Origin: Mizuhopecten yessoensis
Lineage: Eukaryota
Direction of reading: 5' to 3'
DNA: 64,000 bases
NCBI RefSeq assembly: GCF_002113885.1
Contig: NW_018407853.1
Coordinates: forward strand, 904,486-968,485
The position numbers were made by a program. This document shows, in pieces, positions 30,001-39,000 of this stretch (its first letter is position 1; every line of letters begins with the position of its first letter).

Positions 30001-33000
30001 TTTGTTTACGTAGCGTGTTGCTCTTCGTTGTGTTTTTTCTATTTGTTTAATTTGGTTTGTGTTGTGTGGATCCCAAATGGAAGATCAGTATTCAAGTTTT
30101 GGTCTGACTAGTGCTTAATTTGTATGTTTTTAAGTTGCGTTTTAGAAAACCCATAGTGACCTATTGGCTGTAATATTAATGTTGTTAATATGTTTGTCCC
30201 ATCGTAGGCTATTATGTAATGTTAAGCCTAACAAGTATTGCTGGATTCTACTTGGTGTAATGTGTGGTTGTGGAGTTTGTAGTCGGCGCGTCGATTTACC
30301 CAATACTACCCAATTGAAGTGTTGATTTACCCAATTAAACCCAATACTACCACGGAATTAGATTAAAGTTATCTAAGTCCGTGATACTACCCAATACAAG
30401 TATCGATTTTACACAATACTATCCAAGTTAAAGTTTAAAATACCCAATACAAATAAAAATGTTGTGCGGATCCGGGTATTTTTGGCAAGATAGTCGTTAT
30501 TTGGAATTACTTAATTCAATCTATTACATTTTAAAATATTTCATCATTAATACAAAGACAAATACACTTATTATAGAAGAAATATAACAGTACATGTATT
30601 AACAAAGGGACCAGACAACAGACTTATACTATATACATCCAGAGACGTATGATACATTATATTATGATGTATTACACGTCTCTGATACATCTAAGTCTTT
30701 TCCTATAGATACCGGTATCCTAATACTTTAATTTCATTAAAATATTGAAGTTTTGGGTGGAAGATGGAACAAAAACGGATTTTTTTTAACTATTATGAAC
30801 GAACACATATACTCACTCACTCTCATACTGCCATTCGTAATTGGTATATTTCATATCGTTAGAACTTGCATGTATTAAGATATTACTTATAAATTGAGAA
30901 TCGTTTAGTTTTTTTTTTTAAATATGAACTAGTATGATTAAGTACAGTGGCGGACCCAGCAACTAGGGCAACACCCTTTTTCTGTGCCCAAAAATAATCT
31001 GGACCAAGGTTTTTGAAGATTTTCCTCTATTTCATATGGGATTTCCTTCTAAAATCAACCATCCCTTGAACTATGATTTTCTATGGCTTTCCCTTGCCAG
31101 CATTTTGAATATCTATGTATGCCTAAGGGTGTTGCCCAAATAAGGAATCCACTAATTATACTATAAACAAAAGGGGATTAATCCTCTATTGCCGAGCTAT
31201 ATATTATTTTTGTTCTTCATGTTTTCCCAAGTTCCTCCAAAGCAGCTATGAGATGTTAGCTCCTTTTAACTACGAAACATGCAGCAACGCTTTGGAGATG
31301 TATCATCAGGGCATTGAGTTTGATTTAAATAAGAACGTGACATCGGGCGATAGCAGTACGTCTTGATTACCCCAGGGCAAGATGAAGACTTTATACGATA
31401 TAAAAAACTTACTGAAGTCTGTTTTATTTCTAACGGTTATCTCCCTTTGAACGAGGCAGTGATTGATCAATTTCTTCCATATACTGTATAGATTATAGTA
31501 CTGGGTATACCTAATGGAATGTGTGTATTTGGTAGTATGGGGCACTTGTCAATATTGCCTTGTGCAAATACGCCATTATCTGTTAATTACAGAGGTGTAA
31601 CATTGACATTTGGCTTCAGTACTATATATAGAAATAGATATGCATATGATTATATGAAATAACCAGAGTTGTGCTCTCTATCAAATACTTAGTTAAATGC
31701 TAAGACAATTTTGGTTGGCAATAACAGTAGTTGCCTCAATAGTCATTATATTAGAAATTTATTAAAGGCAGGGCCATTTGTGGTTGATAATACCTAAAGT
31801 TGCCTCCAGATACACTATATCAGTATTATTTGAGTCATTTAAAGTTGACAGTACCAAAAGTTGCCTATATAATTAGGTCATTGAAGGTAGGCGGTACATT
31901 GTTGCCTATATATCTAATACACCAAACTTCTTCAAGGCATTTGAGGTTGGCAGTACCCATTGTTGCCGGAAATATCAATTACAATATATCAGAAGGATTA
32001 TTATGGCATTTGAGGTTTACAGTACCCGTTGTTGCCTATAGATTGAATATACAATATATATCAACATTCTTAAGGGCATTTGAGGTTCACAGTAACCCAA
32101 ACTTGCCTTTATATACATCATACTTCTGCTAGGCATTTGAGGTTGACAATACCCATAGTTGCCAATAGATACAAAATATCCTATTTCTTAAGGGCATTTG
32201 AGGTTGACAGTACCCGTAGTTGCCTATATTTACAAAATATCAGAATTCTTAAGGGCATTTGAGGTTGACAATACCTGTAGTTGCCTTTATATACAATACA
32301 TCAGAATTCTATAGGGCATTTGAGGTTGATAGTACCTGTAGTTGCCAATAGATACAAAATATCAGTATTCGTAAGGGCATTTGAGGTTGACGGTACCTGT
32401 AGTTGCCTTTATATACAATATATCATAATTCTGCAGGGCATTTGAGGTTGACAATACCGGTAGTTGCATATATTTACAAAATGTCAGAATTCTTAAGGGC
32501 ATTTGAGGTTGACAGTACCCATAGTTGCCTTTATATACAATACATCAGAATTCTTAAGGGCATTTGAGGTTGACAGTAACCCGTAGTTGCCTATATTTAC
32601 AAAACATCAGTATTCTACAGGGCATTTGAGGTTGACGGTACCCGTAGTTGCCTTTATATACAATATATCATAATTCTGCAGGGCATTTGAGGTTGACAAT
32701 ACCCGTAGTTGCCTACATTTACAAACATCAGTAGTCTTCAGAGCATTTCAGGTTGACAGTACCTGTAGTTGCTTTTAATTTGTATACAATACATCAGAAT
32801 TCTTAAGGGCATTTTATCATGAGGTGGACAATACCCATAGTTTTCTACATGTCCAATATATCAGAATTCTTAAAGGCTTTTGAGGTTAATATCAGAACCA
32901 TTGAGAAATGAAGCTAACAGTATAACCAAACTTTTAACAAATATAGGAACATTAAAGAGCCTATGGGTAAGTACTCTCTGTTGATTTTCAATGATTAATG

Positions 33001-36000: not shown

Positions 36001-39000
36001 ATTTGCGAATGGCTGTCCAGTTACCAGTCAAACACACTATTGTAGCATTATATGTCGCTCATGCACATAATTTGAAATTTGCCAATAGCACCATAGCCTC
36101 ACATCTGTCAGCTATCGCATATTGGCACAGCCTACATGGGTTTGCTGACCCAACAAAGTCATTTTTAGTCAGAAAAGCAATCCGTGGAGCAGCCAGTCTA
36201 GCCCCCACATATGATATCAGGTTACCAATCACATTGCCAATCTTAGAGCGTTTATGCTCTGCAGTCCCGACAATTCTGAACAATGTTGTCCAACAAAATT
36301 TGGTTGTGGCTGTGTTTGCTGTAGCCTTCTACAGCTTAGCACGCATTGGGGAACTGCTAGGACATTGTTCTCTGGGTACATCTCCAAAGAAAGTAGTACA
36401 GTTAGATGATGTCACTTTTGAGGCAGATGGTGCTGTTCTAAAACGTATGCATATTACTTATAGGGAGTTCAAACATAACATTTCAGGGAAACCTCATGTG
36501 ATACCTGTTGAGGCGAACACTACAAGTAACACATGTCCAGTTACATCCTTGTACAATTACATAAAAATGAGAGGTTCTTCCCCTGGGGCTTTATTTATAG
36601 ACGAGTTGGGTCAGCCTTTTCCACGGGCAAGATCTGAGTCTATCACAAGGCGTTGTCTGGTGTTTTGCGATTTGGACGTGGCTAGATACAAAGGCCACAG
36701 CTTTCGCATCGGAGGTGCCTCCTATGCGGCAGCCAAAGGCTTCACAGATGCACAAATTAGGTTATTAGGTCGCTGGAAGACAGATGCATTCAAGAGGTAC
36801 ATACGCTCTCCTTCGCTATAAGTAGAACTTCAGAACACTGTCATGATGAGTTTGATTATGCTTGGCCACATGTTATAGTAACACAATAGTAGCGGGACGC
36901 TCGTGTTAGTTGGTCTTGGAAGCATCAGTAAGGTTGACCAGCCACAAGGACCTGTAAGTGATACACAATAGTAGCGGGACGCTCGTGTTTCAGTGGCGGG
37001 CAACTTGTGAGGTTAACAAGTATGCAGTCACATCTAGTTCAAATAAGCACATCTGTAGCGGAACGCTCAGGTTATGTGGACAATGAACTGTTTTATAGGT
37101 TGTCCAGCCACAAGGACTTGTATGCAATAGCAGTGGGATGCTTATGTTTCAGTGGCTGGCAACTACTACTGTAAATACAAGTGATACAAATATGAGGAAG
37201 GCTTGTAGCGGTACGCTCCCTTTCCTACATTGTTTCATGGCTATATCTTTTGAAAGATAGAAATGTGTTTCACTGTTTTGTTGTGATGTTTTATAAATTG
37301 TACAAAGTAGATTATGATGATTTTATGTAGGTAGAAAACATGCAGCTCGGGTGGCGGCGTCATCACTGGCTTGTCTGGCTTGTGATGCCTTATGGCGGTT
37401 TTAATTGGCCGCACCTTTACAAAAAGGTAATTCATTTCGAATATAAAAGTCAAAAGAAAACAAAAATTAGGAAAGAGAAATCATTTCAAAAAATAATCAA
37501 AAGAAGAAATACAAAACAAATAATTAAATAAATTCGGCGGCCCAGTTTTTTGGGTGAGCCATTTACGCCAAACCCAGGTCTTTGTGTTATGATTTTGTAA
37601 ACAGAGCGTTGCTGCATGTTTCGTAGTTAAAAGGAGTTAACATCTCATAGCTGCTTTGGAGGAACTTGGGAAAACATGAAGAACAAAAATTAAAAGTATA
37701 TTTATATACGATTTTTTGGACAATAAAATGTTTTCATTTAATAATATTCCTTCGGGGACCCCACAGTTGGGTTCCCCTTGTGGGCCCCCTGCTTCAGAAA
37801 GAAAGGGGGGATTCCCATTGGTTGAAAGGTCAAAGGCGAAAGGGCCCCCTGGCTCCTTGCACGCTGACCCCAATCATTAACCCCACAGCCTTTAGATCCG
37901 CCATTTTTAAAAAGCGCAGAAAATCTACAAAACGAAGAAAAGAAAATACCATTGTTGAAAAGACTTACAAATCTTCATAAAAACCCACCCTCCTCCCCTT
38001 ATTCAGCACAGAGAGCATTTTAATAATTAGTAGGGTCTCCAGTCAGATCGGTGATCAAGGCTAACCGGACTGACTCTACCTAATCTTACTGTTCTAAATG
38101 TCACGGTGTGGTTATCACCCTGTCAGTTGGGAGAGGACTATACCATCTGTTGGAATTAGGTGTATAGGTAAAGTGTTATGTCAAAGCATAGACCTAAATT
38201 TACTTTAGGTCTCTGGTCAAAGGTAGAGTCCATTTTATACAATCAATACAATAAGCATATATATTTATCAATACAATATTGAGGAATTCGCAGGAGCTGC
38301 CTTATCAGGCGCTAACTACTACTCCTATGCCACCTGGCTAATATATCCCTATGCGTGTATGCCTGTGTGTGTGCTGGAGATGTATTGTGTTCTGTTTGTA
38401 GTGGGACCGTGCTTCCAACGGTATCATTTACAGTACTAGTGCCACCTCACTTGAATGCTACAGCACAGATACCGCAACACCCACTATGCCTCACTCGAAC
38501 TGTTTGACAATGGAAAAAATATCCGATTAATTATTGCTTTCTACGCTCGGCAGTCTTTGAAATAGTTAAGTATATTGTAACATCTTCAGAAGTGAAATTA
38601 TAATTGTCACAGTCTTAGAAATAATGAAGTTCTATATATTTTTTGATGCCAGAAAGTAGTAAACATGAACAATCGACATAACAATTCTAAGTTATTAGTT
38701 CTAGATAAGTGCAAAAAAATTGCATTCCCCCCATTGCATTGGTTGTGTCGTTTTGCCAGTCTATTTGTGTGAATTTGTCATGGAAATGTTTACCAAAATT
38801 AGTTACAGCTATATTTGGACCTAAACTAAGGTGCTCAGAGTAAGTTTACATGTTTTAGGGGTTTAGATCGAATTTCGGTTAAAATGACACCCCGATGTTT
38901 GTATTTCTCGTATATATATAATCTTTGGGGTGTAATTGTTTACCGAAAAGAGATCTAAACACCTAAAACATGTAAAATTACTCTGAACATCTTAGTTTAG

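What the first reader, a model, noticed from the sequence alone, without database searches (positions are those of the whole stretch)
31206..37690. YR retrotransposon with Ngaro-type genes but inverted termini
Seen: gag, RT/RH and YR with no methyltransferase domain between RH and YR, enclosed by 86-bp inverted repeats (one mismatch). By eye I found no split direct repeats and no convincing internal complementary region. Known: DIRS1-type elements have ITRs, an ICR and a methyltransferase domain, whereas Ngaro-type elements lack the methyltransferase and use split direct repeats. Inference: this is either an undescribed terminal architecture needing a different replication route, or an inverted duplication of the right element/flank junction, possibly YR-mediated. 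The repeats are nearly identical while the RT is decayed, so they are either younger than the element or homogenised.
Basis: partly seen in the sequence, partly recalled or inferred. Interest (0 to 1): 0.7.

Follow-up and report, generated by a model that had tools for sequence, protein, structure and literature searches.

The report
Dead Ngaro-like retrotransposon with inverted ends
One decayed copy of a tyrosine-recombinase retrotransposon of the Ngaro kind lies between two real 89-base inverted repeats, but nothing shows that its family copies itself through such repeats, so it is more likely an ordinary element in an unusual setting than a new kind of element.

Summary
Arms 31206-31294 and 37602-37690 are inverted copies (89 nt, 2 mismatches), the only such pair in the window. 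They enclose a gag-like ORF, a broken RT/RNase H gene and an intact tyrosine recombinase (YR), with no room for a methyltransferase. No split direct repeats and no internal complementary region exist.

Gene content, ORF layout and relatives place it in the Ngaro-like lineage. Of 13 related loci found in mis-binned invertebrate contigs, the two that reach the ends show head-to-tail direct repeats (L008) or a circularly permuted contig (L010). None has flanking inverted repeats.

The origin of the arms cannot be settled from one copy. My ranking:
- Insertion into a short foldback or TIR element: 0.4.
- Genuine new inverted termini: 0.25.
- Remnant of an inverted partner copy, or an inverted duplication: 0.2.

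Both arms are flanked by TTA, which fits the first two.

Two mismatches in 89 nt fit the decay seen in RT/RH. Other genomic copies and empty alleles could not be searched. Interest is moderate to low.

The parts
31204..31206 (.). TTA directly left of the left arm, if the arm is taken as 31207-31294. The same trinucleotide follows the right arm.
   Evidence: The chance of a 3-nt direct match is 0.019 at this base composition, and more with free choice of edge.
31206..31294 (+). Left arm of the inverted repeat
   Evidence: 89 nt, 2 mismatches to the right arm, sharp edges. It does not fold on its own (z -0.57).
31295..31705 (+). Unique non-coding stretch between the left arm and the tandem array. 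Its owner (retroelement or host element) is undecided.
   Evidence: No match to the 3' region, to the flanks or to the related loci.
31706..32887 (+). Tandem array of a 61-nt unit with degenerate outer copies, upstream of ORF1. Probably part of the retroelement's 5' region.
   Evidence: 61 nt x 13.6 and 122 nt x 7.9, 78% matches. Arrays upstream of the gag-like ORF occur in 6 of 13 related loci, e.g. L013 63 nt x 12.8 and L003 112 nt x 3.8.
33140..34102 (+). ORF1, gag-like, 320 aa, open
   Evidence: tblastn matches (23-33% identity, C-terminal half) upstream of RT in 13 of 13 loci. No Pfam family. Atlas and AlphaFold2 were uninformative.
34139..35913 (+). RT/RNase H gene, broken: 3 frame changes and 2 in-frame stops against the closest relative, no large insertion or deletion
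   Evidence: outer bounds and counts only. Pfam RVT_1 and RT_RNaseH are weak on the open stretches. 818 relatives were found. The family profile hits retroviral and caulimoviral RT chains.
35910..36821 (+). Tyrosine recombinase ORF, 303 aa, intact. The frame is open from 35823 and overlaps the end of RT/RH.
   Evidence: The profile of 20 family members hits Cre (E 2.4e-9). The invariant residues R145, K188, H263, R266, W289 and Y297 are all present in the window's protein. 14 of 20 family members hit Pfam Phage_integrase.
36868..37164 (+). Three to four direct repeats (period 75-84 nt, 60-100% identical) carrying a small dyad motif, downstream of YR. They are too diverged to be B1/B2 of a young SDR.
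   Evidence: D6-D8; 36931-37005 vs 37097-37164, 78.7%. Repeats downstream of YR also occur in L001, L004, L005 and L009.
37165..37601 (+). Unique 3' non-coding stretch including an A-rich tract (about 37420-37535). Its owner is undecided.
   Evidence: sequence. No match to the termini.
37602..37690 (-). Right arm of the inverted repeat
37690..37692 (.). TTA directly right of the right arm, if the arm is taken as 37602-37689

Best explanation
This is one dead copy of an Ngaro-lineage tyrosine-recombinase retrotransposon in what is probably a bivalve genome. The 89-nt inverted repeat is real but secondary. The element most likely sits in the middle of a short foldback or TIR element (MITE-like, TTA-flanked), whose two arms now bracket it.

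Shown:
- the gene order gag-like / RT-RNase H / YR;
- no methyltransferase;
- a catalytically complete YR;
- a broken RT/RH gene;
- no SDR and no ICR;
- sharp arm edges;
- TTA on both sides.

Inferred from the published Ngaro model and from two relatives: when alive, the family is transcribed and reverse-transcribed, the ends are joined head to tail, and the YR inserts the joined form at a short core without a target duplication.

Also inferred: this copy is an A-internal-B form without the extra A2-B2. It either integrated as a simple circle or lost A2-B by recombination. A dyad-symmetric target would suit a YR.
For: Lineage:
- The closest named YR and RT relatives are scallop, mussel and cnidarian proteins.
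- RT/RH relatives are 458-777 aa. RVT_1 is the precomputed Pfam family in 119 of 120 listed, and none has a methyltransferase. 0 of 6 scanned has one.
- In the 9 loci where both matches lie on one stretch, the RT match ends 15-39 nt before the YR match.

Ends in relatives:
- In L008, 1-883 repeats at 5303-6185 (100%) and 5173-5282 repeats at 7444-7553 (99%), both direct.
- L010 is circularly permuted with an 86-nt end overlap.
- 0 of 13 loci has inverted repeats flanking the ORFs.

Setting:
- The window holds 4 short-loop foldbacks with arms of 32-84 nt and two copies of a roughly 90-bp TTAA-ended MITE.
- MITEs take a considerable share of bivalve genomes, and Ngaro/DIRS are low-copy there (PMC10294476, passages).
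- Ngaro elements are known to lie inside TIR-bounded elements in Cafeteria (PMC8547959, passages).
- A TTA flank on both sides fits a 3-bp duplication of a TIR element. That TTA/TAA is typical of PIF/Harbinger is recalled, not tested.
- Ngaro-like families or copies without SDRs are on record (DIRS-54_XT, PMC9210276, passages).
- Two independent insertions bracketing the element this closely would be a chance of about 1e-4, so the arms and the element are linked.
Against: - No second copy of the arm sequence was found: none in the window, and none as a predicted ORF in either protein library (weak tests).
- Loops of the window's foldbacks sum to 352 nt of 64,000, so a random hit in such a loop is rare.
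- The other four foldbacks show no TTA flanks.
- The boundary between the host element and the retroelement cannot be shown.
- The relatives that show direct ends share only 40-46% RT identity.
- TTA flanks and the ATT start fit a DIRS-type integration of genuine inverted termini equally well (PMC3266345, PMC7192593, passages).
Confidence: 0.4

Rival explanations
1. The arms are the element's own termini. On this reading an Ngaro-lineage family has exchanged split direct repeats for perfect inverted terminal repeats without an ICR. Joined ends would form a long palindrome around an asymmetric TTA core, which is the layout of a YR site. Integration at a genomic TTA would leave TTA on both sides. 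A shortened 5' end could be refilled from the other arm in a panhandle.
For: - The arm edges are sharp, and the arms enclose every family-typical feature: the 5' array, three genes and the 3' repeats.
- TTA lies on both sides.
- The element starts ATT and ends AAT, like some DIRS1-like elements in Table 3 of PMC3266345 (passages).
- Integration that leaves the junction trinucleotide at either end is the published DIRS model (PMC7192593, passages).
- Repeat types have changed more than once in YR elements (PMC4157794, passages).
- The arm divergence fits the element's decay.
- The YR is intact.
Against: - There is only one copy, and its RT/RH is dead.
- 0 of 13 relatives show flanking inverted repeats, and 2 show direct or circular ends.
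- There is no ICR, and the ICR is essential for DIRS-1 (PMC7192593, passages).
- An 89-bp RNA panhandle would be a liability for the element (inference).
- The arms share no significant motif with the interior (8 of 100 and 94 of 100 shuffles reach the observed score).
Confidence: 0.25
2. The left arm is what remains of a second copy in opposite orientation (head to head, with most of it deleted), or it is a local inverted duplication of the right end made after insertion, possibly by the YR.
For: - YR retroelements often insert into copies of themselves (DIRS-1; PMC7192593, passages).
- This would explain a missing 5' repeat and a sharp inner edge on one side.
- The arms are near-identical.
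Against: - Nothing else of a second copy lies on either side.
- It needs a deletion that ends exactly 89 nt from an element end.
- The matching TTA on both sides is not expected.
- The YR cluster of this element has 1 member on 1 contig, and the next relative is 72% identical. The family therefore looks low-copy where it could be seen.
Confidence: 0.2
3. The arms are an assembly artefact, or two unrelated insertions of one short repeat that bracket the element by chance.
For: - 2 of 3 frame changes in RT/RH lie near homopolymer runs, so the assembly may carry small errors (background 0.39).
- Short repeats do occur in pairs in this window.
Against: - Bracketing within 500 nt on both sides by chance is about 1e-4.
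- There are no further copies in the window.
- Artefactual inverted joins are usually large palindromes rather than 89 nt held 6.3 kb apart (recalled).
Confidence: 0.05

Closest known systems
Ngaro-like YR retrotransposons (zebrafish, sea urchin, Xenopus DIRS-53_XT, Nematostella, Lottia, Cafeteria)
   Same: gag-like, RT/RNase H and YR as separate, co-oriented ORFs. No methyltransferase. Relatives occur in cnidarians and molluscs. Two relatives have head-to-tail or circular ends.
   Different: No A1...B1-A2-B2 repeats in this copy, and an 89-nt inverted repeat at the outer ends instead. No fourth (hydrolase) ORF: no further ORF of 80 aa or more downstream of YR inside the arms.
Xenopus DIRS-54_XT (an Ngaro-like family without recognisable SDRs; PMC9210276, passages)
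   Same: Ngaro-type genes without detectable split direct repeats.
   Different: No inverted termini are reported for it in the passages I saw. It carries an SGNH hydrolase ORF.
DIRS1-like elements of molluscs (LgDIRS1-3, AcaDIRS1-2; PMC3266345 Table 3, passages)
   Same: Inverted termini of similar size (their ITRs are 66-175 nt). An ATT start. No evident target duplication beyond a shared trinucleotide.
   Different: No ICR, no right extension and no divergent outer ITR part: the arms are 98% complementary to the very end. No methyltransferase.
PAT-like elements
   Same: A YR retroelement with gag and RT/RH.
   Different: PAT-like elements carry a methyltransferase and split direct repeats. 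Both are absent here.
Crypton DNA transposons
   Same: An intact Cre-like YR as the only working enzyme left in this copy.
   Different: Cryptons have no RT or gag and generally no terminal inverted repeats (PMC13465315, passages).
Foldback or MITE-like inverted-repeat elements of bivalve genomes
   Same: Arms of about 90 nt at high identity with sharp edges. A possible 3-bp flank duplication. Similar foldbacks lie nearby in the window.
   Different: The arms are 6.3 kb apart rather than 36-211 nt. No second copy of this arm sequence has been seen.

Membership tests
Ngaro-like | RT/RNase H and YR present, with a gag-like ORF | tested here: met
Ngaro-like | No methyltransferase domain | tested here: met
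   No room between RH and YR. None in the 8 ORFs scanned. 0 of 6 relatives. None among the precomputed Pfam families of the 120 listed relatives.
Ngaro-like | Split direct repeats A1...B1-A2-B2 | tested here: not met
   The only 3' direct repeats are 60-85% alike, apart from one 27-nt exact core.
Ngaro-like | RT and YR fall in the Ngaro clade in trees with named references | not testable with these tools
   No named DIRS1, PAT, Ngaro or VIPER reference sequence could be fetched. Indirect support only: relatives in Nematostella and molluscs, and direct or circular ends in L008 and L010.
DIRS1-like | Inverted terminal repeats | tested here: met
DIRS1-like | Internal complementary region matching the outer ends, upstream of the right ITR | tested here: not met
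   arm and flank against the interior score no better than shuffles.
DIRS1-like | Methyltransferase domain after RNase H | tested here: not met
DIRS1-like | The same trinucleotide at both ends and no target duplication | tested here: inconclusive
   TTA on both sides. Chance is 0.019 or more. This also fits a 3-bp duplication.
PAT-like | Methyltransferase plus split direct repeats | tested here: not met
MITE or foldback host element | Terminal inverted repeats with a flanking target duplication | tested here: inconclusive
   The arms are present. TTA on both sides could be a 3-bp duplication.
MITE or foldback host element | Many copies without the retroelement | not testable with these tools
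   0 further copies in the window. No ORF-level relative. No eukaryotic genome collection was at hand.
Crypton | YR only, no reverse transcriptase | tested here: not met
   A full-length, though broken, RT/RH gene is present.

The most novel reading that the evidence does not exclude
An Ngaro-lineage retroelement family has replaced split direct repeats by perfect 88-89-nt inverted termini around a 3-bp TTA crossover core, with no ICR. That would be a third terminal architecture for YR retroelements.

In its boldest form, copies such as this one are handled at the DNA level by the recombinase, as a Crypton would be. Here the YR and ORF1 are intact while RT/RH alone carries all 5 disabling lesions (p = 0.02 if lesions fell evenly).
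Probability: 0.2. Interest if true: 0.75.

Novelty: new member of a known kind. Interest (0 to 1): 0.35.

Why it matters
YR retroelements are sorted by two linked traits: methyltransferase plus ITR/ICR (DIRS1-like), or no methyltransferase plus split direct repeats (Ngaro, VIPER). Each terminal type implies its own way of rebuilding the ends after reverse transcription.

An Ngaro-type element that truly used plain inverted termini would break that link. It would call for a different end-repair route, and it would bear on how YR retroelements relate to YR DNA transposons.

As the evidence stands, this is one dead, apparently low-copy element whose relatives use direct ends. Its main present value is as a caution: inverted repeats around a YR element need copies or empty sites before they are read as its termini. 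It is also a pointer to a family worth a genome-wide look in bivalves.

Tried and rejected
- ICR and SDR searches at low stringency found nothing above shuffles. The best hit (left flank against right flank, inverted; score 26; reached by 1 of 100 shuffles) is a gapped 41-46-nt match 160-295 nt outside the arms. Among 12 comparisons it is not significant.
- The arms as self-folding hairpin ends: z -0.57 and -0.54. Rejected.
- Rfam on 29000-40000 gave only sub-threshold miRNA-family hits on a neighbouring foldback.
- The non-coding parts and the arms against the 13 related loci gave no meaningful match.
- All-against-all comparison of the 13 loci, meant to define ends by loss of homology, failed. 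They are separate families, 63-77% identical in coding parts only.
- The stop-free 79-aa stretch across the left arm, used as a proxy for other copies of the arm, found no relative in either protein library. This is a weak negative, because such ORFs may never have been predicted.
I did not pursue this further, and the ORF scan stands in.
- ORF1: the atlas gave only unnamed clusters at low recognition. The single-sequence AlphaFold2 model was poor (pLDDT 37.4), so no fold search was run.
- The bacterial promoter and terminator scan does not apply to a eukaryotic element and showed no excess.
- Literature: three searches. In the listings and in passages of nine papers I saw no Ngaro-type element described with inverted termini. 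Supplements were closed, and feature tables there (PMC4157794, PMC9210276) could hold such cases.
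Full report
**1. Observation**

The inverted repeat is real. Arms 31206-31294 and 37602-37690 match over 89 nt with 2 mismatches. Complementarity stops abruptly at both the outer and the inner edges. Self-blastn of 30900-38200 against the whole window finds no other copy of the arm and no long direct repeat pairing the 5' and 3' sides. In the whole window only 5 inverted pairs of 40 nt or more lie within 12 kb of each other.

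**2. Anatomy between the arms, all on the + strand**

- A unique stretch follows the left arm.
- A tandem array of a 61-nt unit spans about 31706-32887.
- ORF1 (33140-34102, 320 aa) is open. It has a basic N-terminus, no CCHC knuckle and no Pfam family.
- The RT/RNase H gene lies within 34139-35913.
- The YR ORF is 35910-36821. Its frame is open from 35823 and overlaps the RT/RH end.
- Three to four direct repeats of 75-84-nt period with a small dyad motif span 36868-37164.
- A unique 3' stretch with an A-rich tract leads to the right arm.

**3. State of the genes**

- RT/RH aligns to intact relatives over their whole length (P0121: residues 1-523 of 524, 79% identity). Against that closest relative it has 3 frame changes and 2 in-frame stops, and no large gaps. 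Six other relatives gave 1-3 frame changes; five of them gave 2 stops and one, P0131, gave 11 in a poorer alignment.
- Two of the 3 frame changes lie near homopolymer runs of 5 or more, against a background of 0.39. Small assembly errors therefore cannot be excluded for these, but the stops remain.
- ORF1 and YR carry no stop or frame change.
- If lesions fell evenly over the three genes, all 5 falling in RT/RH has p = 0.02. I leave this unexplained.

**4. Identity of the proteins**

- YR has 292 relatives at E <= 0.001 among 1966 candidates. The closest named ones come from scallops (47-57% identity).
- A profile of 20 YR family members hits Cre recombinase chains (17 distinct sequences, best E 2.4e-9).
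- 14 of the 20 hit Pfam Phage_integrase. The window's own protein reaches only the SAM-like N-domain, at E 0.0094.
- The invariant columns include R145, K188, H263, R266, W289 and Y297 of the window's protein. These fit the YR catalytic set. The assignment of roles is recalled, not tested.
- RT/RH has 818 relatives among 2946 candidates. The 120 listed are 458-777 aa long. 119 of them have RVT_1 as a precomputed family and none has a methyltransferase family.
- Of 6 relatives scanned, 6 have RVT_1, 2 have RT_RNaseH and 0 have a methyltransferase.
- The RT/RH profile hits retroviral and caulimoviral RT chains in the PDB.
- 'gag' remains a positional name. tblastn finds ORF1's C-terminal half upstream of RT in 13 of 13 related loci. 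The atlas and a single-sequence AlphaFold2 model (pLDDT 37.4) gave nothing usable.

**5. No methyltransferase, ICR or SDR**

- The RT/RH match ends where the YR frame starts.
- In the 9 related loci where both matches lie on one stretch, the gap between them is 15-39 nt.
- The arms, the 100-nt flanks and the adjoining inner stretches have no partner inside the element better than E about 0.1.
- Smith-Waterman scores for twelve comparisons do not exceed 100 shuffles. The one exception is a flank-to-flank match that is weak and lies far outside the arms.
- The 3' direct repeats are too unlike (78.7% over 75 nt) to be B1/B2 of an element whose arms are 98% alike.

**6. Relatives with DNA**

No eukaryotic genome collection was at hand. 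A scan of the bacterial and archaeal genome collection with an RT/RH alignment nevertheless returned 13 loci. These are contigs of symbiont or associate MAGs (Sedimenticola, Thiodiazotropha, an Escarpia endosymbiont, Metamycoplasmataceae) that encode this eukaryotic element family. They are evidently host DNA binned by mistake.

- All have ORF1-like, RT/RH and, where the contig reaches it, YR in the same order (YR in 10 of 13).
- They are separate families, 63-77% identical in coding DNA only, so ends could not be defined by loss of homology.
- Only two loci reach the ends. In L008, 1-883 recurs at 5303-6185 (100%) and 5173-5282 recurs at 7444-7553 (99%), both direct. This is a head-to-tail A...B A...B pattern, with 1258 nt between the second A and the second B that I cannot explain.
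- L010 is circularly permuted, with RT split over the contig ends and an 86-nt end overlap. That is what collapsed direct ends or tandem or circular forms would give.
- No locus has inverted repeats flanking the ORFs (0 of 7; for the rest). L008 has only a 28-35-nt, 83-86% inverted match between B and the inside of A.
- Tandem arrays upstream of ORF1 occur in 6 of 13 loci. Repeats downstream of YR occur in L001, L004, L005 and L009. The window's 61-nt array and its 3' repeats are therefore family traits and belong to the retroelement.

**7. What the literature says**

I saw passages of nine papers and one full section, and no supplements.

- DIRS1-like elements have ITRs, two ICRs and a methyltransferase. 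They begin and end with a trinucleotide, mostly ATT, that matches the circle junction. Integration leaves that trinucleotide at either end (PMC3266345, PMC7192593).
- The ICR is required for DIRS-1 (PMC7192593).
- Ngaro, VIPER and PAT use A1...B1-A2-B2 repeats, and Ngaro and VIPER lack the methyltransferase (PMC4157794, PMC3783388, PMC9210276, PMC6681497, PMC13465315).
- Structural features are homoplasious in YR elements (PMC4157794).
- An Ngaro-like family without SDRs exists in Xenopus (PMC9210276).
- Ngaro elements lie inside TIR-bounded virophage-like elements in Cafeteria (PMC8547959).
- Ngaro and DIRS are low-copy, and MITEs abundant, in bivalves (PMC10294476).
- In three searches I saw no description of an Ngaro-type element with inverted termini. 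This rests on listings and passages only.
[quoted passage not shown] 1985 were not read. They are known to me only through these papers.

**8. Explanations**

The arms and the element are linked: two chance insertions bracketing it this closely would be about 1e-4. There are three readings of the link.

(a) The element lies in the middle of a short foldback or TIR element.
- For: the window holds four foldbacks with arms of 32-84 nt and loops of 36-211 nt and two roughly 90-bp TTAA-ended MITE copies.
- For: both arms are flanked by TTA, which could be a 3-bp duplication.
- For: no new replication route is needed.
- Against: no second copy of the arm is known, and a random hit in such a loop is rare.

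(b) The arms are the element's own termini.
- For: joined ends would make a long palindrome around an asymmetric TTA, which is the layout of a YR site, and the TTA flanks follow from the DIRS integration model.
- Against: one dead copy, no ICR, and relatives with direct ends.

(c) The left arm is the remnant of an inverted partner copy, or a later inverted duplication.
- Against: nothing else of a partner is present, and the TTA match would be chance.

I put these at 0.4, 0.25 and 0.2, with 0.05 for artefact or coincidence and the rest for something I have not thought of.

**9. The age argument**

RT/RH has 5 disabling lesions in about 1.57 kb and is otherwise colinear with relatives. If disabling changes are roughly a tenth of all changes (my assumption), the copy has diverged by a few per cent. 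Two mismatches in 89 nt have P(<=2) of 0.74, 0.31 and 0.10 at 1, 2 and 3% per lineage. The arms can therefore be as old as the insertion.

**10. Limits**

No eukaryotic genome collection or curated repeat library was available.
- Left unchecked for those reasons: other copies in the host genome, free-standing copies of the arm, empty alleles, and trees with named DIRS1, PAT, Ngaro and VIPER references.
- The YR cluster of this element has one member on one contig, and the next relative is 72% identical. This suggests a low-copy family where the library could see it.
The closest named relatives point to a bivalve.
- No spliced gene model was needed, and no contig was taken for human.
- The single N at 39860 was left as it is.

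**11. Verdict**

The element is an Ngaro-like member by genes and relatives, but it fails the family's terminal-repeat criterion in this copy. It also fails two of the DIRS1-like criteria. The inverted repeat is real and linked to the element, but its origin cannot be decided from one copy, and the more ordinary readings together outweigh the novel one.

Noticed in passing
L001-L013 (genome contigs records titled as MAGs of Sedimenticola, Candidatus Thiodiazotropha, an endosymbiont of Escarpia laminata, and Metamycoplasmataceae): Thirteen contigs filed under bacterial MAGs carry complete or partial eukaryote-type YR retrotransposons (gag-like, RT/RNase H, YR). They look like invertebrate host DNA binned with the symbiont.
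   Followed up: partly
window 33140-36821: All 5 disabling lesions lie in RT/RH, while ORF1 and YR are untouched (p = 0.02 if lesions fell evenly). This could be chance, selection on YR and ORF1, or small assembly errors. It is not resolved.
   Followed up: partly
window 38799-39022, with a partial inverted copy at 50783-50831: A foldback with 84-nt arms (89% complementary) and a 56-nt loop lies 1.1 kb right of the element. Its right edge and 26 nt beyond it recur inverted at 50783-50831, so it belongs to a larger repeat family. Rfam gives only sub-threshold miRNA-family hits (MIR2606, 56 bits against a gathering score of 139.7).
   Followed up: partly
window 5589-5678 and 16336-16426: Two copies, in opposite orientation, of a roughly 90-bp MITE-like element that starts TTAACC and ends GGTTAA. 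These are TTAA-type ends; the link to piggyBac-type targets is recalled.
   Followed up: partly
window 40240-40351, 44039-44177, 60989-61263: Three further short-loop foldbacks (arms 38, 45 and 32 nt; loops 36, 49 and 211 nt).
   Followed up: no
window 30966-31137: A 13-nt exact inverted pair (30966-30978 and 31125-31137) in the left flank encloses about 170 nt. It may be another small inverted-repeat element just outside the left arm.
   Followed up: no
L008 6186-7443: 1258 nt lie between the second copy of the 5' repeat and the second copy of the 3' repeat, and match nothing else in the contig. This could be a nested insertion, a tandem deletion derivative or an assembly path through two copies.
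   Followed up: no
window 62022-63989 (- strand), with overlapping ORFs in two other frames: A long open stretch of 655 aa in a GC-richer, strongly skewed region has weak MORN-repeat and RING-like Pfam hits. ORFs are open in three frames, which suggests low-complexity repeat DNA rather than a gene.
   Followed up: no
window 2121-2588 and 14287-15378: An ORF with a WD40_4 match (E 1.9e-11), probably a host exon, and an ORF with a weak HSP70 match (E 0.0028).
   Followed up: no
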